A stretch of 64,000 nucleotides of DNA from Alphaproteobacteria bacterium (GTDB lineage: Bacteria > Pseudomonadota > Alphaproteobacteria > Rs-D84). How positions within the stretch are numbered: the first letter of the stretch is position 1; the number at the start of each line of letters is the position of its first letter. A program made the position numbers and the translations under genes. Positions 976-48,007 of this stretch are shown piece by piece. The notes under the pieces are model-generated. The model made no database searches, had not been told where the DNA came from, and was given only the letters and a program-made list of their open reading frames with translations. Where the stretch lies: the NCBI GenBank assembly GCA_017409215.1, contig JAFQTD010000034.1, forward strand, positions 431 through 64,430, given 5' to 3'.

Positions 976-2376
976 TTATCTTTTGTAATACCGCTGAACT
1001 TCGCGCATCACAAAATTAAACAGACGTGCAGATTGGTTGTTGTCGGATATTGCCCAGTCTGTTTGCATATACGGCATTGCAGACACCAATATAAACCGCG
1101 CCATAAAGTGAAAGATGTTCGATTCTTGAATCTTCGATAATTTTGCCGGTGCATTTGTGATACGAAACAGTTCGTTTTCAATTGCGTCATCCAGCTTTTC
1201 CAGAATGTTATCCAGTATTTTCTGTGGATAATACAGTTTACATTCCTTTGGAAATCCTTCCAATACAGAAATATCGCTGCCTTGACTGTACAATATATTC
1301 CAACCAACCCTGTCAAACAGGTCATCCAAACATTTGCAGATCATACGATTGTATGCCTTGACGCCATCTTCGTAAAAAACAGCCAACTTTGCTTCAAGTG
1401 CATCGGATTTTTTTGATTTTGTTTTACGTGCACTTTCATACACAAAGTGTGTCTTGTTTTCAAATTCAAAGAATGTACGAACCTGACATATAATTTCCAT
1501 TGGAATAATGTTTTTTTTGTCTGGCCCGATATTAATAATTATCTTGGCGTCACGATAATTGCGCGGGTTTTGCATATTGTAAAAGCAGTCCCGAACAGAC
1601 AAAATTCTGTCAGGCATCATTGACTGAATGCGTTCAATAAATGTACGTGCCTGTGGGATTAAATCGAACAAGCATTTTACGCGCCATACATCCTGCAGAC
1701 GCATACGTGGCTTATCAATTTTATCCAGTGCGCGAACTAAATCCGCTGCAATTTTTTCATGTCCTGACCCAATAATGGCCAGCACTGTTTCCGCAGGTGT
1801 TGATATGTATTTTTCTTTCAATTTTGCGCGCGCTTTTTCTGCAACGGCCTTGGCGGATGCTTCGCGTTCGTGTGCCGCGATAACCCTGTATACAGTTTCT
1901 GCAACCTCGTCAACATAGTTTTCATAGTATTTGCCAACGATTTTATCCAGCGAACGTGAAACAGTTTTTTGTGCGCCGACAATTACAGTCACAATGGACG
2001 ATACAGCCAAATCAATTTTATGACCTGCTGAACTTGTAAAGAATTGGTTGCGCATTGGGTCGCCATCCAAACGATGTTGCACGATATACGCATTCAGCGG
2101 ATTTATATCAGCGATACTAATCGGCTCATCGATTGCGCAATCTGTCTCGTAATCATAACGCATAACGGCGGTCTTTGGCGCACCGAAACACTTGCCAAGA
2201 ATATAAAAAACTTCACGAAACCAGTGCAGACTATCTGAATATAACGTTTTCAGATAGGCTGCAGCCTCGTCATTGATGCGTCCTGCCAGACGTGCAGCCT
2301 CAAGCGCTGCAATATTCTTGCGGTCGTTTTCAATGGTCAAAGCAACCGTATCGGATTCTTGGCTTAGTGTGTTCAT
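976..2376 (-). CDS. Hypothetical protein with a RelA/SpoT-like (alarmone synthetase fold) nucleotidyltransferase region
   Basis: The segment DVWRVKCLF...NYRDAKIIINIG...PMEIICQVRTFFEFENKTHFVYE parallels the RSD motifs DxxGxR / YRSxH / EIQIRTxxxxxWxxxxHxxxYK. Its start lies 9 nt after the lysS stop. Confidence 0.45.
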   Translation of the reverse strand: MNTLSQESDTVALTIENDRKNIAALEAARLAGRINDEAAAYLKTLYSDSLHWFREVFYILGKCFGAPKTAVMRYDYETDCAIDEPISIADINPLNAYIVQHRLDGDPMRNQFFTSSAGHKIDLAVSSIVTVIVGAQKTVSRSLDKIVGKYYENYVDEVAETVYRVIAAHEREASAKAVAEKARAKLKEKYISTPAETVLAIIGSGHEKIAADLVRALDKIDKPRMRLQDVWRVKCLFDLIPQARTFIERIQSMMPDRILSVRDCFYNMQNPRNYRDAKIIINIGPDKKNIIPMEIICQVRTFFEFENKTHFVYESARKTKSKKSDALEAKLAVFYEDGVKAYNRMICKCLDDLFDRVGWNILYSQGSDISVLEGFPKECKLYYPQKILDNILEKLDDAIENELFRITNAPAKLSKIQESNIFHFMARFILVSAMPYMQTDWAISDNNQSARLFNFVMREVQRYYKR

Positions 2377-33808: not shown

Positions 33809-33883
33809 ATTTGTGAAAAAATACGCTTGTATTAGCACGTGATATATGATAAAATAATCTGTAAAGAGAAGGGAAATTTAGCT

Positions 33884-36028
33884 ATGAAAAGATTTGTTGC
33901 AGTACTAAGCAGTTTATTGGTTTTACCCGCATTTGCAGAGGTTGCGCCCATAACCTATGATGAATTTTATGACGAAGAAGTCGCGGATTATGTGGATGAT
34001 TCTGATGCAGAATCAGCCGATATGGTTGCGGATGAAACGACAACGGTTGTGGAAAAAAGCGCGCCTGTTGTTCAACCATCGCGCAGGGGTGTACGTACTA
34101 CTGCAAATTCTGGACGTTCGGTTTCGCGTGTGTTGCCTTCATCTGTGACGAATGCGAATAATGTATCGAAACGCACTGCGTCGGCTGCTCGTGTAATGCC
34201 CAGTTCGCGTACTGCGACAACGCAACGCGTTGCGGCGCGTACTGCAACCACACAAAATGCACAGTCGCGTGGTACGGTTTCCCGCACTGCGACACGTTCA
34301 AACACGCGTGTTGGTGCGACCGCTGCGCAACAGATTGCCCAGACACGTCGTGCAATGCAGGGGGCACCGTCTGTAAATAGTGCTCGTGCATCTATTGTTC
34401 AAACAGATACTGTTAACACACCGCTTTATACTGGACGTGTTGCAATGCGTTCTGGTGCAGTGCGTGCACGTGTTCCATCGGCTGCGTCTGCTGTGTCGGC
34501 ATCTTCTGTTGTGACTGAAACGGTCGAAGAAACTGCAGTGTCAATGGATGAATTGGCGCAAATCACAGATTTTTGCAAGGCGCAATATACACAATGTATG
34601 GATAATTATTGCAATGTGCTTGACGATAATCAGGGACGTTGTTCTTGTTCTAAAAATTTAAAGAATTATGCAAAAACAGAAGAGGCATTAAAAGCCGCGA
34701 CTGAGGCATTACAAGACGTCGCACAACAGATTCAATATATTGGTTTGACCGGTGACGAAGTTGAAATATTGTTTACGCAAACTGTTGCCGAAGATCAAAT
34801 GCAATCATCATCTGATAATACCCAGTTGAAAAGTGATTTAGACAAAATTAAAAACCTGATTGTTGATGTCAAGACAGGGTCTGCATCATCAACTGAAACA
34901 GGAATGAGTTTTGATTTGTCTGGCCTGTTGGACTTCAGTGTTGACAGTACTGGTTTTGACTTGTCATCACTGTTTGGTGGCGGTCAGGCGAACACATCCA
35001 GTATCAGCAATCAACGTGGTGAACAATTGTACAAGACCGCGACTGCACGTTGCAAGGCGGCGGTTCTGTCGGATTGTCAATCCCAGGGGGTTGATATCTC
35101 GATTATCACAAACGCGTATGATTTGGAAATTGACAAACAGTGTTTGGCATACGAACGTAAATTGACAGACAGCAACGAAGAAATGGGTCGCACAGTACGC
35201 AATGCAAAAAGTGTTTTGCAACGCGCGCGCTTGATGGTTGCCCAGAACAAGAATGTTTATCAAGATATGCGCAGCTGTGTAAATGCACTTGATTCATGTA
35301 TGCAAGACGACTTTGTCTGTGGTACAGACTATGAAAACTGCATTGACCCATCCGGTAAATATATCGTAAACGGCGAAGTCGTTGTTGGTTCAATGCCAGG
35401 ACAAGTTATTGATAATAATAAACCAGGTGCGCCTGGATTCTATGGCACAGGGCTGTATGCCACATGGGAATATGATGAATCAAATGCATGGGATGATGAT
35501 GGAAGTCTAGAAGATTTTATTAACAGTACTGTAACGTCTGCGTTTCCAACTGAGTCTGGTACCAACATTTCTAAGTTCCTGCAAAATAAAATCGGCTATA
35601 ATGACAGCAGTGACGGCAGAAACTATGGTATGTGCATATCGGAATTGAATAAATGTCAGAATTTGACATACAATTCCGACGGTAAATACAAACCCGATAA
35701 TCCAGTGGTCAAGGAATATCTGCGCCGCACATTGATTCAAATCAAGAATATGCAGGATAACATCTTGGCATCCTATGCAGAAAATTGCATACCAGAGGTT
35801 AAAGCCTGCCTGACGCAAAACGGCTTTGATTTTGTGGATTACATCACTGACTTAGAACCATCTAAGTCGTCACCTACAAACAATGTTGCGATGAATGCGT
35901 GTAGACAGCAAATCATAACTTGCATGTCTGTAAATGGTGATGCAGAGGCTGATCCAACACCGAATTCAATGTTGAAATGGGTAAATAGCGCAACTGGTGC
36001 AACAAAGGCACCAACGCCAGAATCGTAA
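33884..36028 (+). CDS. Secreted 714-aa protein with an acidic stretch, an Arg/Thr/Ser/Ala-rich repeat region and an 18-Cys C-terminal region
   Basis: Start taken at MKRFVAVLSSLLVLPAFA (signal peptide, RBS agaaggg). Degenerate R-T-A-T-T-Q repeats; Cys clusters such as FCKAQYTQCMDNYCNVLDDNQGRCSCS and SCVNALDSCMQDDFVCGTDYENC. Confidence 0.7.
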   Translation: MKRFVAVLSSLLVLPAFAEVAPITYDEFYDEEVADYVDDSDAESADMVADETTTVVEKSAPVVQPSRRGVRTTANSGRSVSRVLPSSVTNANNVSKRTASAARVMPSSRTATTQRVAARTATTQNAQSRGTVSRTATRSNTRVGATAAQQIAQTRRAMQGAPSVNSARASIVQTDTVNTPLYTGRVAMRSGAVRARVPSAASAVSASSVVTETVEETAVSMDELAQITDFCKAQYTQCMDNYCNVLDDNQGRCSCSKNLKNYAKTEEALKAATEALQDVAQQIQYIGLTGDEVEILFTQTVAEDQMQSSSDNTQLKSDLDKIKNLIVDVKTGSASSTETGMSFDLSGLLDFSVDSTGFDLSSLFGGGQANTSSISNQRGEQLYKTATARCKAAVLSDCQSQGVDISIITNAYDLEIDKQCLAYERKLTDSNEEMGRTVRNAKSVLQRARLMVAQNKNVYQDMRSCVNALDSCMQDDFVCGTDYENCIDPSGKYIVNGEVVVGSMPGQVIDNNKPGAPGFYGTGLYATWEYDESNAWDDDGSLEDFINSTVTSAFPTESGTNISKFLQNKIGYNDSSDGRNYGMCISELNKCQNLTYNSDGKYKPDNPVVKEYLRRTLIQIKNMQDNILASYAENCIPEVKACLTQNGFDFVDYITDLEPSKSSPTNNVAMNACRQQIITCMSVNGDAEADPTPNSMLKWVNSATGATKAPTPES

Positions 36029-39615: not shown

Positions 39616-40407
39616 ATGAATGATAAAGTAGAACAGGTTTTTTTACAAATAGTGGCCAACGTGACGTATGGCGGGGATATTAAGTACGTTCTGGAAAATA
39701 AAGAAGAAGATCGTTTTTTTGAGGCCATAGGTGCGGATTCTCTGGAAGTAGTTGAGATTGTGATGGCACTTGAAGACACATTTGATATAAATATTACAGA
39801 TGAAGAAACGGAAGCTTTTGTAAAAATGAGCTGTAATGAAATATTACATATGCTAGAGTCAGCAGGCGCATCAGCAGAATCTATGCGAAGAGCAAGAGCA
39901 CAGAAAGAAAACCAAAAACCAGTTGCTGATAAGAAACAGGCGCAGGAATCCTCAAATCCTGGTGCTGATAAGAAACAGGCGCAAGAATCCTCAAATCCTG
40001 GTGCTGATAAGAAACAGGCGCAGGAATCCTCAAATCCTGGTGCTGATAAGAAACAGGCGCAAGAATCCCCAAACCCTGGTGCTGATAAGAAACAGGCGCA
40101 GGAATCCCCAAAACCGGTTGCTGATAAAGAACAAACACAGAAAATAGAATTTAAAACTATTTTACATCAGGCAGAAAATTTGCTCGCTTCGATAAAGTTG
40201 TTTGAAACTGTACAGAATAACATAACCGCGCCGTCAAAACAGCAACCTAAACCTGCCATAGAATTGCGTACAATGAAAGACGGCAAGCCATACTGTGAAT
40301 TACTGGGCAAAAAATGCAACCGCCCAGAAAGACCAAATAACACAGGCAAGGTTTATTGTGAATTTATGAATTGCAGAATATATAACAACTTCCAAAGACT
40401 TCGTTAA
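39616..40407 (+). CDS. Acyl-carrier-protein-like domain fused to a 13-aa tandem repeat region and a 4-Cys C-terminal tail
   Basis: The N-terminus [27 protein letters not shown] matches the ACP DSL phosphopantetheine-site helix. [13 protein letters not shown] is repeated about 5 times. C-terminus: CELLGKKC...CEFMNC. Confidence 0.65.
39925..40140 (+). repeat. 39-bp in-frame tandem repeat, about 5.5 copies
   Basis: Unit gctgataagaaacaggcgca(g/a)gaatcc(t/c)caaa(t/c)cctggt starts at 39925, 39964, 40003, 40042 and 40081, with a partial copy from 40120. Confidence 0.9.
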
Positions 40408-40419
40408 TAAATCATTAAA

Positions 40420-40455
40420 AAACACAGCCGCCCAAATGGACGGCTTTGTTTTTAT
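40420..40455. terminator. Bidirectional terminator between convergent ORFs
   Basis: Stem agccg/cggct with flanking A- and T-runs (aaaaaacac...tttgttttt). Confidence 0.4.
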
Positions 40456-41789
40456 CGTTTATTTGTTGTGTATCTTTTAACAATTTGCTGTTGTGCCTTG
40501 TTTAGCGGTTTTTTTGCCTGTAATTTCTCTACGGTTTTCTTTTTATCAACAGGCGCAACCCCGTATTCATTATATAGTCTTGCGATATCATCTGCAATCA
40601 CCGCGCCACTGCGCGCATTGCCAGACTTTATACGGTCCGCGGCATCGGCTAAATTTTTGCGTTTTTCCACTTTTGTTTTTTTGATATCTTGTTTTGGTGA
40701 TGGAAAAACTTCATAACAATTCTTTAAACCAAATGTTTCCTGCATATTCTTTTTCATAGCAGGGTCTTTTGTCACTTCATGCAAGGCCCGAACAAAATCA
40801 ACCACTTCTTTTGACTTGCTAAACTTGCTATAGTTATGTTTAACAGAATCATATAACAATTTAATTATATCTTGATTGTAATAATCTGTGTTCATCCTTA
40901 GCTGTTTCAAGAATGACGATATATCGCGTTTTTCTGCGATAATTTTCTCGATTCTTTGTTTAATAACCAATGCGTTTTCAAAGTATTGAACTGCGCCTGG
41001 GCCATATATTTTTGCAATTTGTTCGTCAGACAATGCATTCAGCGCTGTTTGGTCTGCCTTATCAAAGAAAATTTCAAAATTCTTTGTTTTTTTATAATAT
41101 TCCCACTTCAACCTATCTGCCAAGACTGTCACAGCCGCCCGCATAACGATATTATAGAAGTTCTTTTTCGTAAAATCATTATCTTCTGGGTTGTTCTTAA
41201 ATTCCTTGTCTGATTGTTCGCGTCCATGTGCGTGCCATTCTGAATGCGAGATATTAAAATTATGTTCCTTTGCGAATTTCAGCATTTCAGTGCGTTTTTC
41301 TTTTGGTAACGCGTTAATAGCATCTTGAATATTTTCTCGGTCAACAAGGCGTAAAAAATCAAAGACAGCTGTCCATCGTGGATATTTCATTCCAGTCAGC
41401 ATAGCTTCAACACCAACAGGCGTAAAATTTGACATTTTCTGTGTTATATTATAGTAATCGTTCGCTATGTGCTGTTTTTTCCAAAAGCCTGCGATTTCCT
41501 GAAAATATTTCTCAATTTTTGCATCTGTACTTTTATACAAATGTGGGAAATCTAATTTATGCCTCATTTTTGCTGGGGCCATATTGGTATCAATTTTAAT
41601 AGTTTTTAAATTATCATCCACAAACTTATCAATATTTGCAAACAAGTTAGATTGATTTTGTCCATCGACACCATTTATTGTGTTTTCAAAAAAATCATAA
41701 TGTTGATTTCCATCTGTCACCGATATGCCCACTAATTCACCTTCGTTATTTCCGAAATAAGCGCGTCGTTTTGTGAAAGTATATCTCAT
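40452..41789 (-). CDS. Hypothetical protein (445 aa) with a Lys-rich C-terminal tail
   Basis: Clean ORF with an aggag RBS and no recognisable motif. C-terminus: KKKTVEKLQAKKPLNKAQQQIVKRYTTNKR. Confidence 0.6.
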   Translation of the reverse strand: MRYTFTKRRAYFGNNEGELVGISVTDGNQHYDFFENTINGVDGQNQSNLFANIDKFVDDNLKTIKIDTNMAPAKMRHKLDFPHLYKSTDAKIEKYFQEIAGFWKKQHIANDYYNITQKMSNFTPVGVEAMLTGMKYPRWTAVFDFLRLVDRENIQDAINALPKEKRTEMLKFAKEHNFNISHSEWHAHGREQSDKEFKNNPEDNDFTKKNFYNIVMRAAVTVLADRLKWEYYKKTKNFEIFFDKADQTALNALSDEQIAKIYGPGAVQYFENALVIKQRIEKIIAEKRDISSFLKQLRMNTDYYNQDIIKLLYDSVKHNYSKFSKSKEVVDFVRALHEVTKDPAMKKNMQETFGLKNCYEVFPSPKQDIKKTKVEKRKNLADAADRIKSGNARSGAVIADDIARLYNEYGVAPVDKKKTVEKLQAKKPLNKAQQQIVKRYTTNKR

Positions 41790-41848: not shown

Positions 41849-42208
41849 TTATTGTGTGCGGTTAGTATGCTTTGATAATTCTTTATACAGTGCATCTGGG
41901 GTTTGTATCCGCCAATTTCGTAGCCCTATCATATTCTTCGCCAGTTGTACACAGCTAATCATATATCGTATATTCGTACAATCGGCATTACAGTTGTCCA
42001 AGACTATGAACACCCAACCATATTTTGACAAGATATTTAAATCCCGCAATTTTAGCGGGATTTTAACAATTTTATTAAATTTAACAAATTGCCACATTTC
42101 TAAGTCTGATTTGCGCACCAGTATCGGTGCTGTATGTACAAAATTTCTGCAAAATAAGCGTGGCAATATTTTTGATGTATTTCTGCAAAAGCCGATAATA
42201 ATCATCAT
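41849..42208 (-). CDS. Hypothetical protein (119 aa)
   Basis: A ggag RBS lies directly after the upstream ORF stop, so it is probably co-transcribed with the 42226 ORF. Confidence 0.45.
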   Translation of the reverse strand: MMIIIGFCRNTSKILPRLFCRNFVHTAPILVRKSDLEMWQFVKFNKIVKIPLKLRDLNILSKYGWVFIVLDNCNADCTNIRYMISCVQLAKNMIGLRNWRIQTPDALYKELSKHTNRTQ

Positions 42209-42225
42209 TTACTCCATAAACAAGT

Positions 42226-42567
42226 TTAATCAATCCATCCCCGTTCTTGTGCTGCAACCCCCAGCACATTCATTGCGTGTGCCCAAATTGTGACAGCATA
42301 ATTTTCACACCATATATGTTGATGGGGTGCGCGTTTTTTATCGCCAAATTTTTTCATTACCGACAAATCATCATCGGTTAATTTTCCACACAAATACAGT
42401 TTTGTAATCAGTGTTTCTACATCCAGAATTTCACAAGGTCTGCGTGTTTGGCTGTGCCTTCTGTATGAAAAATCATTTCGCACAGATTTAGAATACAAGA
42501 ACCAGAACCATAATTGTTCTGGGGATTGGAATTTTTCAGTTGCATAGTTAGCCAAGCTTTGTGTCAT
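42226..42567 (-). CDS. Hypothetical protein (113 aa from MTQSL)
   Basis: An aaggag RBS lies 9 nt upstream of the ATG at 42567. The ORF-track start at 42609 is probably read-in. Confidence 0.5.
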   Translation of the reverse strand: MTQSLANYATEKFQSPEQLWFWFLYSKSVRNDFSYRRHSQTRRPCEILDVETLITKLYLCGKLTDDDLSVMKKFGDKKRAPHQHIWCENYAVTIWAHAMNVLGVAAQERGWID

Positions 42568-42847
42568 TTTTTCTTTCTCCTTTGTTTTTTTTATTTTGTT
42601 TTTGGTCATCGATATATATACCCAAAGAAAAGATTCTTGTAAAATATTACAACCAGCGGTTGAATTGCGAATCGAAAATCCGATTCAAAACGCATATTTA
42701 TAAAATGGTACGCGAATCGGCTTTTATTCCTAAAACGGGTATTACATCAGCTTATTTAATAAAAAAAAGTGCGCGATAATGCGCACTGAAAATAAAATAT
42801 CAATATACTAATTTTCGTTTATCTCCTTTGCTTAATCGTTTGTTGTC

Positions 42848-42889: not shown

Positions 42890-45370
42890 TTATAACAACG
42901 GCGGGAAGCAGTCGCCACCGGCCTCTGGACAGCAATTGAAACCCATTTCACCCATATCTGTATAGATTTCACCTGCACAGCAACCATTTTCATCTGGTAA
43001 ACTGCCATCCATACAGGTCAGTGCCGTATCTTCTGCAGCTGGCGCTTCTGTCACAGGGTTTTCGTATGGATTAACAACAGTGCCGTCATCGTTATATTGT
43101 ATCCCCAGAATTTCTTCGTTAAACTGTTGTGTTCCTTCGCCACCCAGTTCTTGAATCTTTTTCTGATACTGTTTCGTTTGGTCTTCAGTATAGGTCTTAT
43201 ATTGTAAAGCTTTCTTTGATTGATAGCTTTGCGATTGGCACCAGAACAGCAGTGTTTGATAAGAATAACCACCACATGCCGCATTGTTAGCATTAGTATT
43301 TTTACGGCATTCTTCAATTGGTCGGCACTGTCCCGATACTTCATCGCACTCACAAAAGTTCAATGTTTGAAACGCTCTCGATTGTCCCATCCATTCCGGT
43401 GATTCATAATCAATTGGGTCGAAAGCATGCATTCCTTTGCCCGTTGAACGTCGCGATCCGTTATCGTATCCCAAGGCGCATTTTTTCCCACTATTTGTAT
43501 CGTCACCACATGATGCGACCAAATCCACAGGTGAATATACGGTTATACGTGTACCTGCGGCAATTGTAAATGGCGGAACCGAACTGTTCATCATATCCAG
43601 CATTAATTTTTGTGCAACCGCATTCCACGCGCTAATAATTTCAGACTTTGCTAACTCAGATGAACGCACTGTTCCACTTTGAACAACTGTATTGTTATCC
43701 AGGTCAATCTGGTTAACAAACGCATCCGCCACTGGATTAATCAGGTTAATCGCCGCAGGAACAAAAGAAGTCAACATTGGCATAAAGAATTGTTCCAGAT
43801 AGTCTGTACTGCCACGTCCCAGAACACCTTCACGTCCTTGTGCGTCACCAGAAAAAGGATCGTTATTTCCTTCTCCTGTAAAATTATACTCCATCCCATT
43901 TGGTAAGACGAACTGGTACCATTTTATCGACATACGCCCGATTGATGCGTATGGCCCGGGCAACTTGCCTGTCACATACCCCAGCATTAATGTCCCAGCC
44001 GGTATAATAACATTGCGTCCTGAATCAGAATAAACGTTTCTATCAACAGTTGCGCGCACTGGCAAGAAACTGTTTTCTAACGCTTCGGGGTCTGCACGCA
44101 CCTCTGACACAATTGTTGCAGGAATTGGTTTATATTGACGTAATATGAATTGTCTGTCGTATGGTCGTGTTGGTCTTAATCTGTCTTCTCCAGACCCCAG
44201 ATATTCGTCTACATCAATTGGCGCTGCTGGCTTTACAATATCTTGACCTGATGATAACTCACGCCCCATTGTTCCAGTAGGTGTTGAAGGGGTATCGCTT
44301 TGTTTTGCACGAATAACTTGTTTTATTGCGGGTCTCATTTTTAATTCAGGCAACACACCACTATTTACCACCGACAAACCGATATGTTCTGCATCTGTTC
44401 CGATTTTTTTACCACTGTCATCTGTGATGATACCATTGTCTGGATTATAAGTCCCTTCGGCATTGGTACAGTCCTTGTCCGCAAAAGAATGATAATAATA
44501 CGCACCACCCGATGGCTTTACCCACCCGATTTGTTTGCCTGATGTTCCGTATGCAGGGAATGCAAAATCTGAACATCCATCAGGAATCACAATTTCAATA
44601 TCTTTCTTTGCTTTTTTTGCAGGCTTTTTAATTGCCGGTGCCAATGCATTAACAGATTTTTTGACGTTTTCCTTTACAGGCTCTGGTTCTGGCTCTGGTT
44701 CTGGTTCTTCCACAGGTTCTGGTTCAAAATCAAGTTCTTCTTCTGGCTCTTGATTTACGAATGGCTCTTCCTCTGGTTCTTCCGCTGGTTCAGGTTTTGG
44801 TTCAGGCTCTGACACAGACATTGGCACAGGGGTTGGTTCTTTGATTGGTGCTTGCGCCCCCAGTGTCAAAACGATTTTAGATTCTTTTTTCATTGTTTGT
44901 GGTTCTTTTACGTCATGCCATTCGACGAACAAAGAAACGTTTGTGACGGGCTGAACAGTGGTTGGTTCATATTTCAAAAATATTTTGCACCCAATTGTTT
45001 TATTAATGGGCTGGATTACAGTGCAATTCTGCTGTACGTTTAACCCGTTAATTTCTGTATAATTATTAACCGCCAAGACATTCACATCCGCACTTGCAGT
45101 TATACTGATTTCTTGATTTTTTGTGTCACCAACCAAGACTTCAGCCCAGTTGATGATATCAGGTTCGATTTTTATTTCTGCTGTTGCCTTTTCTACATCA
45201 TTCAAGTTGGCTTTTTTATTGCTATCATCGCCAAACAATAACATCAATAATATCAACACCAACACAAACGCAGTCAGCATCAACAGCCATTGCACGCGCT
45301 TTGGCATTCCCTGTGTCAAACCCGCCAGTTTTGTTTTCAGAACATTAAACTTTTCTTTTATCTTTGCCAT
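42890..45370 (-). CDS. virB10: VirB10/TrbI-family T4SS protein, enlarged (826 aa)
   Basis: N-terminal TM, Pro/Glu-rich linker (PEPKPEPAEEPEEEP...EPEPEPEPEPV) and a TrbI core (VIIPAGTLMLGYVTGK...IKWYQFVLPNGMEYNF...DAQGREGVLGR...TIAAGTRITVYSPVDL). It follows virB9. Confidence 0.8.
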   Translation of the reverse strand: MAKIKEKFNVLKTKLAGLTQGMPKRVQWLLMLTAFVLVLILLMLLFGDDSNKKANLNDVEKATAEIKIEPDIINWAEVLVGDTKNQEISITASADVNVLAVNNYTEINGLNVQQNCTVIQPINKTIGCKIFLKYEPTTVQPVTNVSLFVEWHDVKEPQTMKKESKIVLTLGAQAPIKEPTPVPMSVSEPEPKPEPAEEPEEEPFVNQEPEEELDFEPEPVEEPEPEPEPEPVKENVKKSVNALAPAIKKPAKKAKKDIEIVIPDGCSDFAFPAYGTSGKQIGWVKPSGGAYYYHSFADKDCTNAEGTYNPDNGIITDDSGKKIGTDAEHIGLSVVNSGVLPELKMRPAIKQVIRAKQSDTPSTPTGTMGRELSSGQDIVKPAAPIDVDEYLGSGEDRLRPTRPYDRQFILRQYKPIPATIVSEVRADPEALENSFLPVRATVDRNVYSDSGRNVIIPAGTLMLGYVTGKLPGPYASIGRMSIKWYQFVLPNGMEYNFTGEGNNDPFSGDAQGREGVLGRGSTDYLEQFFMPMLTSFVPAAINLINPVADAFVNQIDLDNNTVVQSGTVRSSELAKSEIISAWNAVAQKLMLDMMNSSVPPFTIAAGTRITVYSPVDLVASCGDDTNSGKKCALGYDNGSRRSTGKGMHAFDPIDYESPEWMGQSRAFQTLNFCECDEVSGQCRPIEECRKNTNANNAACGGYSYQTLLFWCQSQSYQSKKALQYKTYTEDQTKQYQKKIQELGGEGTQQFNEEILGIQYNDDGTVVNPYENPVTEAPAAEDTALTCMDGSLPDENGCCAGEIYTDMGEMGFNCCPEAGGDCFPPLL

Positions 45371-45405: not shown

Positions 45406-46950
45406 TTATTGTAATCTAACGACACTGCAACTTGTGCCACTAAATTTCAGCATTTTATCGCACAGTTTTTGCGCCGTATCAATACTTGCAAACGGCCCGA
45501 TACGCAGGCGATACATTCTGGCGCTGGTTGATGCGGCACCCAAATCACCAACCCCCTGTGTATCAACGGAATAGAATACCATATCTTCGTATGGTGTTAA
45601 CAACCCCTGACCATCTTCACCACTAAATTTAGCCAGCAACATTGCCCAATAATCATCCAGTGCCTTAACGGACGTATCTGATTTTAATTCCACTGCGACC
45701 CCAACTTGGTTGCTGGAAATCAGTGGTATATTTGTCTGTGGCAGGTATGCGCCCGCAGTATTGCGTTGTTGTGGCAACATATTAACGACACTGCCCGACG
45801 ATTGTACTGTATTCTGTGGCATGCCATAAAATCCCGCTGGTGTATAATACCCCGCGCCTGTCATTGGGTTAACAGTTTGTGTATTTCCCATAAATACAGG
45901 TGACCCTGTATAATTTGTTCCCATACTCATTGCGGCCATACTGTCGGTGTATGCGATATTATTCAAAGATTGACCAGACAACATACTTTGTGCGACGTTG
46001 GCCTCTGCCAGTGCCATAACAGATGCAGTATCGGCAATCAAGAATGGTTTTTCACGTTTCTTGATACAGACGATACGCTGACCGCTGCGTAAAACCATAT
46101 CTCCGACCGCCTCGACAATTAACAGTCTGCCGTCTTCCCCGTCTGTGCGGAATCCAACAGGGGATTCGCCACCTTCGACCAACAGGGAAACCACAGGTCT
46201 TTGTGTCATCGAAATAACCTTGTCACCAAAGTCAATATATGTAAAGATTCTGTCGCGCCATACGCGTTCTGGTGCGATAACATAATCGTCTGGGTTTGGA
46301 ACAAAGATATCTAAATCAAATCTAAATTCAGATGGGTCGATTTTCATAGACTTAATCCAACCGTAATCTTCGCCATCTACCCCGACAACATTTGATGTGG
46401 TTGGCGCTGCCTTGAATATAGAACGTGCCCCCCCAGATGTTTTGCCAGTTGTTCCCATTGCGACTGGCAGACTGCCATTCCCATCCAGCACAACATCGAC
46501 CTGAGAATACATAATTTCGCTGGCATTACTTGGGTGTGCCTGTAAATAAAAGATGTATTTATTCCCAGATTTGCCGGTCACAATCATATTTGTATCAGAA
46601 CCCTGATTGCCTTGCTCGGGCGAAATAAACATTGTTCTATCGCCTTGTGTTGTGTCAATCTGGAATTGTCCAGTATCACCTACGATTGCATCCTCAATCT
46701 GTTCGCCGTTTGGCAACGTGACCATTGTCACCATTCCATTGCGCAATTTTAATGGTAATACACTGCCTGGGGACCAAGCCAATTGTGCATAGCCTGGTTT
46801 TATACTGCCGTCAACCATATTGGCATTTGGATTATCCCAGGCCTCTTGTATCCCATATGGCTCATTATCATTAGAATACGCAGGTAATGAAACCAGTCCC
46901 ATCAAACAAAAAACAGAAACGCTAAACTTTAATTTTCTTAAAAAAACCAT
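45406..46950 (-). CDS. virB9: VirB9/CagX-family T4SS protein with a C-terminal SPOR-like module (514 aa)
   Basis: Signal peptide (LVSLPAYS). VirB9 N-domain (LKLRNGMVTMVTLPNGEQIEDAIVGDTGQFQI) and C-domain (DRIFTYIDFGD...PVVSLLVEGGESPVGFRTDG..LLIVEAVGDMVLRSGQRIVCIKK). Tail MYRLRIGPFASIDTAQKLCDKM. Confidence 0.8.
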   Translation of the reverse strand: MVFLRKLKFSVSVFCLMGLVSLPAYSNDNEPYGIQEAWDNPNANMVDGSIKPGYAQLAWSPGSVLPLKLRNGMVTMVTLPNGEQIEDAIVGDTGQFQIDTTQGDRTMFISPEQGNQGSDTNMIVTGKSGNKYIFYLQAHPSNASEIMYSQVDVVLDGNGSLPVAMGTTGKTSGGARSIFKAAPTTSNVVGVDGEDYGWIKSMKIDPSEFRFDLDIFVPNPDDYVIAPERVWRDRIFTYIDFGDKVISMTQRPVVSLLVEGGESPVGFRTDGEDGRLLIVEAVGDMVLRSGQRIVCIKKREKPFLIADTASVMALAEANVAQSMLSGQSLNNIAYTDSMAAMSMGTNYTGSPVFMGNTQTVNPMTGAGYYTPAGFYGMPQNTVQSSGSVVNMLPQQRNTAGAYLPQTNIPLISSNQVGVAVELKSDTSVKALDDYWAMLLAKFSGEDGQGLLTPYEDMVFYSVDTQGVGDLGAASTSARMYRLRIGPFASIDTAQKLCDKMLKFSGTSCSVVRLQ

Positions 46951-46973: not shown

Positions 46974-47651
46974 TTAGTTGATTTTGTAAAAAACGCTATC
47001 AAGTGGATCGCCATCACCTTCGACGATTTTGTATTCACTGACACGCAACCCCAATGGGTTATCGATACGTCCTGCCGTATCTATCTCTGTATCACCGATT
47101 TCTTTTAATTTGATTTGAACGGTATAGTTTTTGGCGCTGTTTGTTAAAACGTCCCCATTAATATCGGTACAAAAATAGCGAAAGTTGATTCTGTATGCAT
47201 TTTCAGACGCAAAGTACATCATTTTATCTTCATACGACACATGGCACGAGAAGTCAAAATCTGACGTCGTTCCCATAATTCCCTTGAACATTTCGGTATT
47301 GATAAAGTCCGCATAAACATCTTCTGCTGACATTGCGCGCACTTTACCATTCCAGATATTCTGCATAGTTTCTGTGTTGTTAAACACTTCGTTCCTGTGT
47401 CTAATATATTCACGAATAAAGGCGCGTTTGTACAATTCAATATTTTTATCATTGTTTGCTGTTGACATTTCAACCAGCCTTACTGTCTTAGCACTAGATG
47501 GTTCTGTCAATAAAAAGAATATCTGTGGTCTGTTCAGCGGGAAAGTTTTTATCAGCGCAATCAGCAAACCAACCAGCACAACAATTGCAGTTGCGCACAC
47601 AAAGACCAGCAGTCTTGATACTAAAATCGGCGGTTCTACGCGTTTTGACAC
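46974..47651 (-). CDS. virB8: VirB8-family T4SS protein
   Basis: 225 aa with a single N-terminal TM, an NTF2-like periplasmic part with FIREYIRHRN, and the C-terminal NPLGLRVSEYKI motif (compare NPLGFQVTSY). First gene of the operon. Confidence 0.8.
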   Translation of the reverse strand: MSKRVEPPILVSRLLVFVCATAIVVLVGLLIALIKTFPLNRPQIFFLLTEPSSAKTVRLVEMSTANNDKNIELYKRAFIREYIRHRNEVFNNTETMQNIWNGKVRAMSAEDVYADFINTEMFKGIMGTTSDFDFSCHVSYEDKMMYFASENAYRINFRYFCTDINGDVLTNSAKNYTVQIKLKEIGDTEIDTAGRIDNPLGLRVSEYKIVEGDGDPLDSVFYKIN

Positions 47652-47872
47652 AAAATCCTTCCTATCAATTTAAAATGATTGTAGAAAAAAATATATAACT
47701 TATGCAAGAAAAAACTAATATAAAAGTTGCAAAAACGACCGATTAAATTTTTCTTGCACAAAACAAGCAAAAATATTATAATATTTCCGCTTGATTTTTT
47801 GTATTTGTGTGCTATTCTTTTGCGGACTGTATATAATGGCATGCGGTACGTCGGGCTAAAAAAAGCAGCCAC

Positions 47873-47946
47873 AGGGGCATAGTTCAACGGTAGAATATCG
47901 GTCTCCAAAACCGCGGATGAGGGTTCGATTCCTTCTGCCCCTGCCA
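47873..47946 (+). tRNA. tRNA-Trp (anticodon CCA)
   Basis: Acceptor AGGGGCA/TGCCCCT, anticodon loop CTCCAAA, T-arm GAGGG TTCGATT CCTTC, 3' GCCA. It sits in the classical position upstream of secE-nusG. Confidence 0.9.
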
Positions 47947-48007
47947 GATTTCTAAGGGGTGTTGTTATATATGGTTGCGGGTAAATTACGTAATACTGGA
48001 CAGTTTT

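What the first reader, a model, noticed from the sequence alone, without database searches (positions are those of the whole stretch)
45409..45693. SPOR-like peptidoglycan-binding module fused to the C-terminus of VirB9
After the canonical VirB9 C-domain (ending ...RSGQRIVCIKK) comes a low-complexity linker rich in Q/N/G/M/T/Y. The last ~95 aa then read VAVELKSDTSVKALDDYWAMLLAKF...ARMYRLRIGPFASIDTAQKLCDKMLKFSGTSCSVVRLQ. The second half closely follows the SPOR consensus (Y-R-V-R-V-G-P-F-x-S-x-x-E-A-x-x-L-x-x-x-L-x-x-x-G-x-x-x-x-V-V). The first half fits the first beta-alpha-beta unit. SPOR domains bind denuded glycan strands at septa. Attaching one to the outer-membrane core subunit would tether the T4SS core to peptidoglycan, possibly to division sites or poles. 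I am not aware of this being a described feature of VirB9 proteins.
Basis: inference. Interest (0 to 1): 0.65.

Follow-up and report, generated by a model that had tools for sequence, protein, structure and literature searches.

The report
Altered SPOR domain fused to VirB9
A secretion-machine outer-shell protein (VirB9) of uncultured gut Alphaproteobacteria really does end in a cell-wall-binding-type SPOR domain, but in every copy the key sugar-binding glutamine is replaced by glutamate, the same change that weakens binding in the E. coli protein FtsN, so it probably does not work as a standard SPOR domain.

Summary
ORF 45406..46950 (minus strand, 514 aa) is one reading frame: signal peptide, VirB9 core, a ~100-aa linker and a ~98-aa C-terminal domain. 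The gene lies between virB8 and virB10.

**The tail is a true SPOR homologue:**
- Pfam SPOR scores above its gathering cutoff, but matches only the second half of the model.
- hhalign against canonical SPOR domains gives 97.7% over the whole domain.
- AlphaFold predicts βαββαβ, and the three best PDB matches are RlpA and DedD SPOR domains.
- The tail profile retrieves canonical SPOR proteins from 1.84 billion sequences.

**The fusion is not an artefact:**
- It is conserved in at least 275 species-level genomes (Ca. Enterousia and relatives).
- It also occurs in a second large alphaproteobacterial clade.
- Purifying selection on the tail equals that on the VirB9 core.

**The functional reading is weakened.** The most conserved glycan-contacting residue of SPOR domains (Gln; RlpA Q270, FtsN Q251) is Glu in 244 and Asp in 1 of 245 tail clusters, never Gln. 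The β1 aromatic residue is also lost. FtsN Q251E is the standard binding-defective mutant. The β3 arginines and two cysteines are invariant.

I read the tail as a remodelled SPOR-derived tether for the T4SS outer core. Canonical septal targeting is unlikely. I found no literature description. It is a new variant of a known kind.

The parts
45406..46950 (-). Complete virB9 gene (514 aa plus stop): signal peptide, VirB9 core, linker and SPOR-derived tail in one reading frame.
   Evidence: The full length is conserved in 120 of 120 top homologues and in 275 species-level genomes.
46873..46950 (-). Predicted Sec signal peptide (residues ~1-26, …LVSLPAYS|ND), which places the protein, including the tail's two cysteines, in the periplasm.
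   Evidence: Read from the sequence. AF2 predicts an N-terminal helix at residues 2-21. The cleavage site is inferred and was not predicted with a dedicated tool.
46057..46785 (-). VirB9/CagX core (residues 56-298).
   Evidence: Pfam PF03524, 82.4 bits, E = 5e-23. NCBIfam VirB9 TIGR02781 scores only 59 bits against a cutoff of 217.7, so this is a divergent VirB9.
45766..46056 (-). Linker (residues 299-395). The first ~45 residues are conserved with a predicted helix at 309-323. A Q/N/G/M/T/Y-rich, low-confidence stretch follows.
   Evidence: Invariant columns. AF2 pLDDT is ~25 with a helix at 309-323. pN/pS is 0.239, against 0.148 for the core.
45709..45765 (-). Conserved pre-domain motif RNTAGAYLPQTNIPLISSN (residues 396-414). 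A similar φP(L/V)φ motif is recognisable in some distant tail-bearing VirB9s.
   Evidence: pN/pS is 0.142. Its function is unknown.
45409..45702 (-). SPOR-derived domain (residues 417-514): β1 417-425, α1 428-442, β2 458-464, β3 478-487, α2 490-504, β4 509-513.
   Evidence: AF2 model of the tail, mean pLDDT 80.9; the same fold appears in the full-length model. Foldseek top hits are RlpA SPOR 6i09/6i05 and DedD 6ztg. Pfam SPOR scores 28.8 bits. hhalign gives 97.7%. pN/pS is 0.143.
45688..45690 (-). Codon GAA = Glu421 on β1, in the column of the glycan-binding Gln of canonical SPOR domains (RlpA Q270, FtsN Q251).
   Evidence: MAFFT and hhalign place E against Q. Counts are E 244, D 1, Q 0 of 245, against Q 66 of 79 in canonical relatives.
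45502..45510 (-). Arg481-Leu482-Arg483 on β3 (YRLRIGP), equivalent to the RlpA R309/R311 basic patch. Both arginines are invariant.
   Evidence: 245 of 245. Residue roles are taken from PMC6895207.
45427..45462 (-). Stretch bounded by Cys497 (α2) and Cys508 (β4). The cysteine pair is invariant, is shared with the nearest canonical SPOR domains, and is a candidate periplasmic disulfide.
   Evidence: 245 of 245. The disulfide is inferred, not shown.
46974..47651 (-). virB8, immediately upstream in the same operon.
   Evidence: Pfam VirB8 PF04335, 38.6 bits.
42890..45370 (-). virB10/TrbI-family gene (826 aa), immediately downstream.
   Evidence: Pfam TrbI PF03743, 51.5 bits, residues 412-615.

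Best explanation
The tail is a genuine but remodelled SPOR-family domain, permanently fused to the C-terminus of the outer-membrane core subunit VirB9. The T4SS is chromosomal and vertically inherited. It occurs in genome-reduced gut Alphaproteobacteria (Ca. Enterousia, order Rs-D84) and in a second large uncultured alphaproteobacterial clade.

Proposed mechanism:
- VirB9 is exported by its signal peptide and assembles into the outer-membrane core.
- From the periphery of that core, each VirB9 copy projects a ~100-residue, largely flexible linker ending in the SPOR-fold domain.
- The domains act together as a multivalent periplasmic tether that fixes the machine to the cell wall.

The ligand site on the β-sheet face is conserved but chemically changed. 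The Gln is replaced by Glu and the β1 aromatic residue is lost. The two β3 arginines are kept, and an Arg and a terminal Gln on β4 are near-invariant. The domain therefore most likely recognises the wall in a non-canonical way rather than binding denuded septal glycan as FtsN, DamX or RlpA do.

Shown here: the fold, the homology, the fusion, its conservation, purifying selection, and the residue replacement. Inferred: periplasmic location, the tethering role, the copy number per machine, and the nature of the ligand.
For: Fold and homology:
- Pfam SPOR scores above its gathering cutoff.
- AF2 predicts βαββαβ with mean pLDDT 80.9.
- The Foldseek top three are SPOR domains: RlpA with glycan at E = 4e-4 and TMt 0.65, RlpA apo, and DedD.
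- The tail profile searched against 1.84 billion representatives finds VirB9 tails first and then canonical SPOR proteins. All 10 of the latter that were tested score 81-117 bits on Pfam SPOR.
- hhalign gives 97.7% over the full domain.

Reality of the fusion:
- It is a single ORF.
- All 120 top homologues are 492-524 aa long.
- 275 species-level genomes carry it.
- Tail pN/pS is 0.143, against 0.148 for the core.
- A second clade of 510-617-aa proteins, ~40-45% identical in the tail, sits in a virB8-virB7-like-virB8-virB9-virB10-virB11 context.

Conserved, remodelled site:
- E 244, D 1 of 245; R481 and R483 in 245 of 245; both cysteines in 245 of 245; no aromatic residue at the F274 column.

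Plausibility of a wall tether:
- The host lineage encodes RodA, MreB and MrdA, so it makes peptidoglycan (PMC12306168).
- In the Legionella T4BSS, the outer-core lipoprotein DotK binds PG and anchors the machine at the poles (PMC10266036). It does so although the structural study had doubted binding because key residues were missing (PMC7511231).
Against: - There is no binding or localisation data; the organisms are uncultured.
- The Q-to-E change is the same substitution that reduces glycan binding in FtsN, so the domain may not bind peptidoglycan at all.
- The full-length AF2 model is poor (mean pLDDT 46). The position of the tail relative to the core and the flexibility of the linker are therefore not established.
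- Part of the 'linker' is strongly conserved, which could mean it docks onto a partner rather than acting as a passive spacer.
- I could not inspect model coordinates. That Glu421, Arg481 and Arg483 lie on one face follows from the SPOR topology and the RlpA complex, not from a measurement here.
Confidence: 0.5

Rival explanations
1. The tail is a functional canonical SPOR domain that binds denuded (amidase-processed) glycan strands, so it recruits or retains the T4SS at division sites and new poles.
For: - SPOR homology and fold are established.
- The basic-patch arginines equivalent to RlpA R309 and R311 are invariant.
- According to PMC6895207, most SPOR-glycan contacts are made by backbone atoms of the conserved fold, so some affinity could survive.
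- Three of 79 canonical SPOR domains also carry Glu at this column.
- Polar T4SS positioning through PG binding has a precedent in DotK.
Against: - The only highly conserved glycan-contacting side chain (Gln) is Glu or Asp in 245 of 245 tails.
- FtsN Q251E reduces septal localisation and denuded-glycan binding.
- In the RlpA complex the Gln amide donates hydrogen bonds to the MurNAc lactyl carboxylate and the GlcNAc acetyl oxygen. A carboxylate there would repel the lactyl carboxylate.
- The β1 aromatic residue (F274) that stacks on the sugar is absent in 245 of 245.
- The Pfam model fails to match the whole first half (profile positions 1-38).
Confidence: 0.15
2. The tail is a SPOR fold recruited for protein-protein interaction inside the secretion machine. 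It might bind the extended VirB10, a VirB7-like lipoprotein or neighbouring VirB9 copies to build an extra periplasmic ring. It has no peptidoglycan binding.
For: - The canonical ligand residues are lost while a different set of surface residues became invariant: E421, R481, R483, R512 and the terminal Q514.
- This SPOR subtype was found only on VirB9.
- It co-occurs with unusually enlarged VirB10 proteins: 826 aa here and 2274 aa in L081.
- There are conserved segments in the 'linker' and a conserved pre-domain motif.
- Precedents exist for extra peripheral domains on T4SS outer-core subunits, for example the N0 domain of Xanthomonas VirB7 (my own knowledge). DotK and Lpg0657 were likewise first read as non-PG-binding structural subunits.
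Against: - No partner was identified. AF2 shows no docking of the tail on the VirB9 core, although that model is weak.
- The retained di-arginine patch is what canonical SPOR domains use for the MurNAc carboxylate.
- The long low-confidence spacer suits reaching a distant layer better than forming a fixed ring.
Confidence: 0.3
3. The tail is an artefact: a separate SPOR-protein ORF joined to virB9 by an assembly or frameshift error, or non-functional read-through sequence.
For: NCBI annotates several short contig-end fragments of this region as 'SPOR domain-containing protein, partial', which could suggest a separate gene.
Against: - There is one uninterrupted frame in the window.
- The same full-length architecture appears in hundreds of independent assemblies from different hosts and studies.
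- Tail pN/pS is 0.143, identical to the core, with synonymous sites near saturation.
- The 'SPOR' fragments are simply C-terminal pieces of the same gene on short contigs.
Confidence: 0.01

Closest known systems
SPOR domains of the cell-division proteins FtsN, DamX and DedD and the lytic transglycosylase RlpA (Pfam PF05036)
   Same: The βαββαβ fold is the same and RlpA and DedD are the best PDB matches. Homology is detectable over the whole domain. The β3 'YRLRxGP' strand with the two arginines of the basic patch is kept. A cysteine pair is shared with the nearest alphaproteobacterial SPOR domains.
   Different: The glycan-binding Gln on β1 is Glu (244 of 245) and the β1 Phe is lost. There is a longer α1-β2 region and a ~14-residue β2-β3 insert, which is disordered in the model. 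The domain is attached to a secretion-system subunit rather than to a divisome protein or PG enzyme. Pfam matches only profile positions 39-76.
Canonical VirB9/TrbG/TraO outer-membrane core subunits of type IVA secretion systems
   Same: The CagX/VirB9 domain, the signal peptide and the virB8-virB9-virB10 gene order are the same.
   Different: This protein carries ~215 extra C-terminal residues (linker plus SPOR-derived domain). Its score is well below the NCBIfam VirB9 equivalog cutoff. The genes are chromosomal, next to secE-nusG-rplKA-rpoBC, in a genome lineage of under 1 Mb rather than on a plasmid.
DotK, the OmpA-like lipoprotein of the Legionella Dot/Icm (type IVB) outer-membrane core
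   Same: It is a PG-binding-type fold at the periphery of a T4SS outer core. It lacks canonical binding residues yet binds PG and anchors the machine at the poles (PMC7511231, PMC10266036). This is the closest functional analogue for the tether idea.
   Different: The fold is different (OmpA-like, not SPOR). DotK is a separate lipoprotein subunit, not a fusion to VirB9/DotH. It belongs to a type IVB rather than a VirB-type system.
AMIN domains on the PilQ secretin of type IV pili; PG-binding modules of T6SS (TagL) and T2SS (GspA/ExeA). This comparison rests on my own knowledge and was not tested here.
   Same: An envelope-spanning machine carries a wall-binding module on, or next to, its outer-membrane channel subunit. 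For PilQ AMIN the module is linked to septal or polar pre-positioning.
   Different: The folds are unrelated, the machines are different, and the ligands are known or assumed to be canonical.

Membership tests
SPOR domain (Pfam PF05036) | Significant match to the family profile. | tested here: met
   25.1 bits (full protein) and 28.8 bits (tail) against a gathering cutoff of 21, but only profile positions 39-76 of 76 are matched. hhalign against canonical SPOR domains gives 97.7%, E = 1.6e-12, over 85 columns. The reciprocal search retrieves canonical SPOR proteins.
SPOR domain (Pfam PF05036) | βαββαβ (RNP-like) fold with a four-stranded antiparallel sheet backed by two helices. | tested here: met
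   AF2 elements are E7-15, H18-33, E48-53, E69-77, H80-94, E99-103, with mean pLDDT 80.9. Foldseek ranks 1-3 are RlpA SPOR and DedD; generic ferredoxin-like folds score worse.
SPOR domain (Pfam PF05036) | Conserved Gln on β1 that hydrogen-bonds the MurNAc lactyl carboxylate and the GlcNAc N-acetyl group (RlpA Q270, FtsN Q251, DamX Q351). | tested here: not met
   Glu421 in the window. Counts are E 244, D 1, Q 0 of 245 tail-bearing VirB9 clusters, against Q in 66 of 79 nearest canonical domains. FtsN Q251E is binding-defective.
SPOR domain (Pfam PF05036) | Aromatic residue at the end of β1 (RlpA F274, HMM position 12). | tested here: not met
   Asp425 in the window. The column holds D, H, N, G, S or A and is never aromatic in 245 of 245, against F or Y in 64 of 79 canonical relatives.
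SPOR domain (Pfam PF05036) | Basic patch on the sheet face (RlpA R309/R311, FtsN R285). | tested here: met
   Arg481 and Arg483 are invariant in 245 of 245. Equivalence comes from the alignments.
SPOR domain (Pfam PF05036) | Binding to denuded peptidoglycan glycan strands and septal localisation. | not testable with these tools
   This needs sacculus pull-down or ITC and localisation of an exported fluorescent fusion.
VirB9/TrbG/CagX (T4SS outer-membrane core subunit) | Match to the family profile. | tested here: met
   Pfam CagX PF03524, 82.4 bits against a cutoff of 34.2, residues 56-298. The NCBIfam equivalog TIGR02781 scores only 59.4 bits against 217.7, so this is a divergent family member, not an equivalog.
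VirB9/TrbG/CagX (T4SS outer-membrane core subunit) | Encoded between virB8 and virB10 in a T4SS operon. | tested here: met
   The flanking genes are VirB8 (PF04335) and TrbI/VirB10 (PF03743). The same order is found in distant relatives, there with virB11 and a VirB7-like lipoprotein.
VirB9/TrbG/CagX (T4SS outer-membrane core subunit) | A complete T4SS (VirB4, VirB6, VirB11, VirD4) is present in the genome. | tested here: inconclusive
   None of these genes is in the 64-kb window. They may lie elsewhere, as in the scattered Rickettsiales-type systems. The whole genome was not available.

The most novel reading that the evidence does not exclude
The VirB9 tails define a new specificity class of SPOR domain. 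The invariant Glu-for-Gln swap, next to the retained di-arginine patch, would switch recognition from the denuded MurNAc-lactyl/GlcNAc-acetyl pattern to a different wall feature. Candidates are N-deacetylated (GlcN, positively charged) glycan or stem-peptide-bearing strands. That altered recognition would then decide where in the cell the T4SS is fixed. If so, it would be the first natural SPOR variant with a re-targeted ligand, and the first wall-reading module built directly into a VirB-type core subunit.
Probability: 0.2. Interest if true: 0.7.

Novelty: new variant of a known kind. Interest (0 to 1): 0.45.

Why it matters
How VirB-type (type IVA) secretion machines are fixed to and positioned in the cell wall is poorly understood. 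The known wall-related component is mainly the VirB1 transglycosylase, which cuts the wall rather than holding on to it.

This is a wall-binding-type domain built directly into the core subunit VirB9. It is conserved across hundreds of species with genomes below 1 Mb, where little dispensable sequence survives. That argues anchoring matters for the machine.

For SPOR biology, these tails are a large natural family carrying the same Gln-to-Glu change used in the laboratory to weaken binding, with the rest of the site frozen by selection. They offer a ready-made test of whether SPOR folds can be re-targeted to other ligands.

The practical limitation is that the hosts are uncultured, so tests must use recombinant domains or surrogate hosts.

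Tried and rejected
- **Sequence searches against the PDB.** phmmer with the tail and hmmsearch with the tail profile gave only spurious antibody heavy-chain hits (E ≥ 0.04). SPOR domains are too divergent for this; fold search and hhalign were needed.
- **NCBIfam.** There was no hit for the tail.
- **Tail-only word-indexed homology search.** It returned only short contig-end fragments of the same gene. It was useful for building the alignment but not for the distribution.
- **Full-length AF2.** The alignment was too shallow (mean pLDDT 46). It gave no information on docking of the tail or on the VirB9 C-domain. It only confirmed that the tail folds on its own.
- **Frameshift or separate-ORF artefact.** Rejected.
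- **The tail as a replacement for the VirB7 lipoprotein.** Rejected at least for the second clade, which encodes a 58-aa lipoprotein with an LVAC lipobox next to virB8. No such ORF is adjacent to virB8 in the window, but it could lie elsewhere.
- **Other SPOR domains in the window.** None was found by HMM search of the six-frame translation.
- **Primary mutagenesis papers.** Duncan 2013 (PMC3837948) and Williams 2013 (PMC3732209) are not held. The Q251E phenotype is cited second-hand from 10.1101/2024.05.13.594014 and PMC6895207.
- **The 'SPOR' mention in the Legionella PgdA paper.** It was only the word 'sporulation'.
- **E. coli FtsN SPOR sequence.** Its numbering (Q251, C252, S254, W283, R285, C312, I313) agrees with the residues named in PMC6895207, but it was not fetched from a database.
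Full report
**1. The observation**

The window carries one uninterrupted 514-codon ORF on the minus strand (45406..46950).

Pfam assigns residues 56-298 to CagX/VirB9 (82.4 bits). The neighbours are VirB8 (46974..47651) and a TrbI/VirB10 protein of 826 aa (42890..45370). The N-terminus reads as a Sec signal peptide (sequence).

The three T4SS genes lie in the chromosome beside secE-nusG-rplK-rplA-rpoB-rpoC and other housekeeping genes. No virB4, virB6, virB11 or virD4 is in the window.

**2. Is the tail a SPOR domain?**

Yes. Four independent lines agree.

- **Profile match.** Pfam SPOR (PF05036) scores 25.1 bits on the whole protein and 28.8 bits on the tail alone, against a gathering cutoff of 21. 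Only profile positions 39-76 are matched.
- **Predicted fold.** AlphaFold2 on a 20-sequence tail alignment gives mean pLDDT 80.9 and the element order β-α-β-β-α-β, with a disordered β2-β3 insert. The same fold reappears at residues 417-513 in the otherwise poor full-length model.
- **Fold search.** Foldseek against the PDB ranks three SPOR entries first: P. aeruginosa RlpA SPOR with bound denuded glycan (6i09, E = 4e-4, TM 0.65 on the target), apo RlpA SPOR (6i05) and DedD (6ztg). Generic ferredoxin-like folds follow with worse E-values.
- **Reciprocal search.** The tail profile was searched exhaustively against 1.84 billion representative proteins and gave 56 hits. The best are VirB9 tails. 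The rest are multi-SPOR proteins, and all ten of those I tested score 81-117 bits on Pfam SPOR.

A profile-profile comparison of the tails with those canonical domains gives 97.7% probability (E = 1.6e-12) over 85 columns, from β1 through β4. Sequence-only searches of the PDB failed. That is expected for a family with under 20% pairwise identity (PMC6895207).

**3. Is the fusion real, and how widespread is it?**

- All 120 best homologues are 492-524 aa long and cover the tail.
- A scan of one genome per species found 275 species-level genomes with a relative. The 80 kept are gut MAGs labelled Candidatus Enterousia or Alphaproteobacteria, from sheep, goat, deer, yak, horse, mouse and human.
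- Across 52 extracted orthologues, synonymous sites are nearly saturated (pS ≈ 0.7). pN/pS is 0.143 for the tail and 0.148 for the VirB9 core. It is 0.142 for a conserved pre-domain motif and 0.239 for the linker.
- More distant full-length VirB9 proteins also carry the tail: P0178, P0182, P0186 and P0189.
- P0189 represents a second large clade of 510-617-aa proteins, about a third of which already carry precomputed CagX+SPOR Pfam hits. Its locus reads virB8, a 58-aa lipoprotein (lipobox LVAC, VirB7-like), virB8, virB9-tail, a 2274-aa virB10, then virB11.
- Source names are 'TrbG/VirB9 family… [Alphaproteobacteria bacterium]' or '[Rickettsiales bacterium]'. Contig-end fragments are named 'SPOR domain-containing protein, partial'.

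An assembly artefact is excluded.

**4. The detail that changes the interpretation**

In the RlpA-glycan crystal structure, four side chains contact the glycan: Q270, R302, R309 and R311. Only Q270 is highly conserved across SPOR domains. Its amide donates hydrogen bonds to the MurNAc lactyl carboxylate and to the GlcNAc N-acetyl oxygen. F274 at the end of β1 makes a CH/π contact. The remaining contacts are made by the backbone (PMC6895207). The equivalent FtsN residue is Q251. [quoted passage not shown]

MAFFT and hhalign both align the tail's β1, V-A-V-E-L-K-S-D, with the canonical V-Q-L-G-S-F. The offset to the start of α1 is the same as in FtsN.

| Column | 245 tail-bearing VirB9 clusters, both clades plus outliers | 79 nearest canonical SPOR domains from 28 proteins |
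|---|---|---|
| Gln (RlpA Q270) | Glu 244, Asp 1, Gln 0 | Gln 66, His 5, Glu 3 |
| Aromatic (RlpA F274) | never aromatic | Phe or Tyr 64 |
| R309 equivalent | Arg 245 | Arg 55 |
| R311 equivalent | Arg 245 | Arg 45 |

In the tails both cysteines are also invariant. A β4 Arg is present in 243 of 245 and the C-terminal Gln in 244 of 245.

The tails therefore form a distinct SPOR subfamily, seen only on VirB9. Its sheet-face site is under strong constraint but is chemically different from the canonical denuded-glycan site. This also explains why Pfam matches only the second half of its model.

**5. What it most likely does**

The host lineage (order Rs-D84) has genomes of ~0.75-1.0 Mb, retains RodA, MreB and MrdA, and is thought to depend on partners (PMC12306168). 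Keeping a T4SS, and this extra domain, under selection as strong as on the core argues for function.

From established T4SS architecture (my own knowledge of the pKM101/R388 core complexes), the VirB9 C-domain sits on the outside of the outer layer under the outer membrane, in about 14 copies. A C-terminal extension would therefore project into the periplasm towards the wall.

My best reading (confidence ~0.5) is a multivalent periplasmic tether with a non-canonical recognition mode. DotK of the Legionella type IVB system is the nearest functional precedent and also a caution. It was first judged unlikely to bind PG because key residues were missing (PMC7511231). It was later shown to bind PG in an acetylation-dependent way and to hold the machine at the poles (PMC10266036). 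Missing residues therefore lower, but do not eliminate, a wall-binding role.

The rivals are:
- a SPOR fold recruited for protein-protein contacts inside an enlarged machine (~0.3), supported by the VirB9-only distribution, the giant VirB10 partners and the conserved linker segments;

**6. Novelty and score**

No paper in the held library combines VirB9 with SPOR, apart from two incidental co-occurrences. The one I opened mentions VirB9 only in its reference list. Automated pipelines already tag some of these proteins with both Pfam domains, and NCBI names fragments as SPOR proteins.

The idea of a wall-binding module on a secretion machine is known. A SPOR-derived module fused to VirB9, with a natural Q-to-E binding site, is a new variant. 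Interest is moderate at 0.45. It is a clean, widespread and testable architecture, but its function is unproven and the hosts are uncultured.

Noticed in passing
window 42890..45370 (-); also L081 4115..10939: The VirB10/TrbI protein is unusually large (826 aa). It has an acidic Pro/Glu-rich repeat region (~residues 176-240, EPEPKPEPAEEPEEEP…) ahead of the TrbI domain (412-615). After that domain comes a ~200-aa Cys-rich C-terminal extension ending …CCPEAGGDCFPPLL. In the second tail-bearing clade the VirB10 homologue is 2274 aa. Enlarged VirB10 thus co-occurs with the VirB9 tail.
   Followed up: partly
window 39616..40407 (+): A 263-aa protein has an acyl-carrier-protein-like N-terminus (Pfam PP-binding, 26 bits). 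It is followed by five tandem copies of a 13-aa unit ([26 protein letters not shown]) and a Cys-containing C-terminus. This is an odd architecture for an ACP.
   Followed up: no
window 40452..41789 (-), 41849..42208 (-), 42226..42609 (-): Three ORFs directly downstream of virB10 on the same strand (445, 119 and 127 aa) have no Pfam hit. virB11/virD4, which follow virB10 in the related locus L081 and in Rickettsiales-type operons, are absent here. These ORFs could be lineage-specific T4SS components or substrates.
   Followed up: partly
window 45709..45765 (-) and 45922..46056 (-): Two conserved segments lie inside the supposed linker. One is the motif RNTAGxYLPQxNIPLI just before the SPOR-derived domain, with a similar φP(L/V)φ motif in some distant clades. 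The other is a nearly invariant stretch REKPFLIADTASVMALAEANVAQSMLSGQSLNNIAY with a predicted helix at 309-323. Their conservation suggests binding sites rather than passive spacer.
   Followed up: partly
L081 1395..1571 (+): A 58-aa lipoprotein (MKKYVFLLGIASVLALVAC…) is encoded between two virB8 paralogues in the second clade. It looks like a VirB7 equivalent. No counterpart is adjacent to virB8 in the window (47652..47975 holds no convincing ORF).
   Followed up: partly
window 33839..36028 (+) and 976..2376 (-): Two large ORFs (729 aa and 466 aa) have no Pfam match at E ≤ 0.01 and E ≤ 0.001 respectively. They sit in a highly reduced genome that is otherwise dense with housekeeping genes.
   Followed up: no
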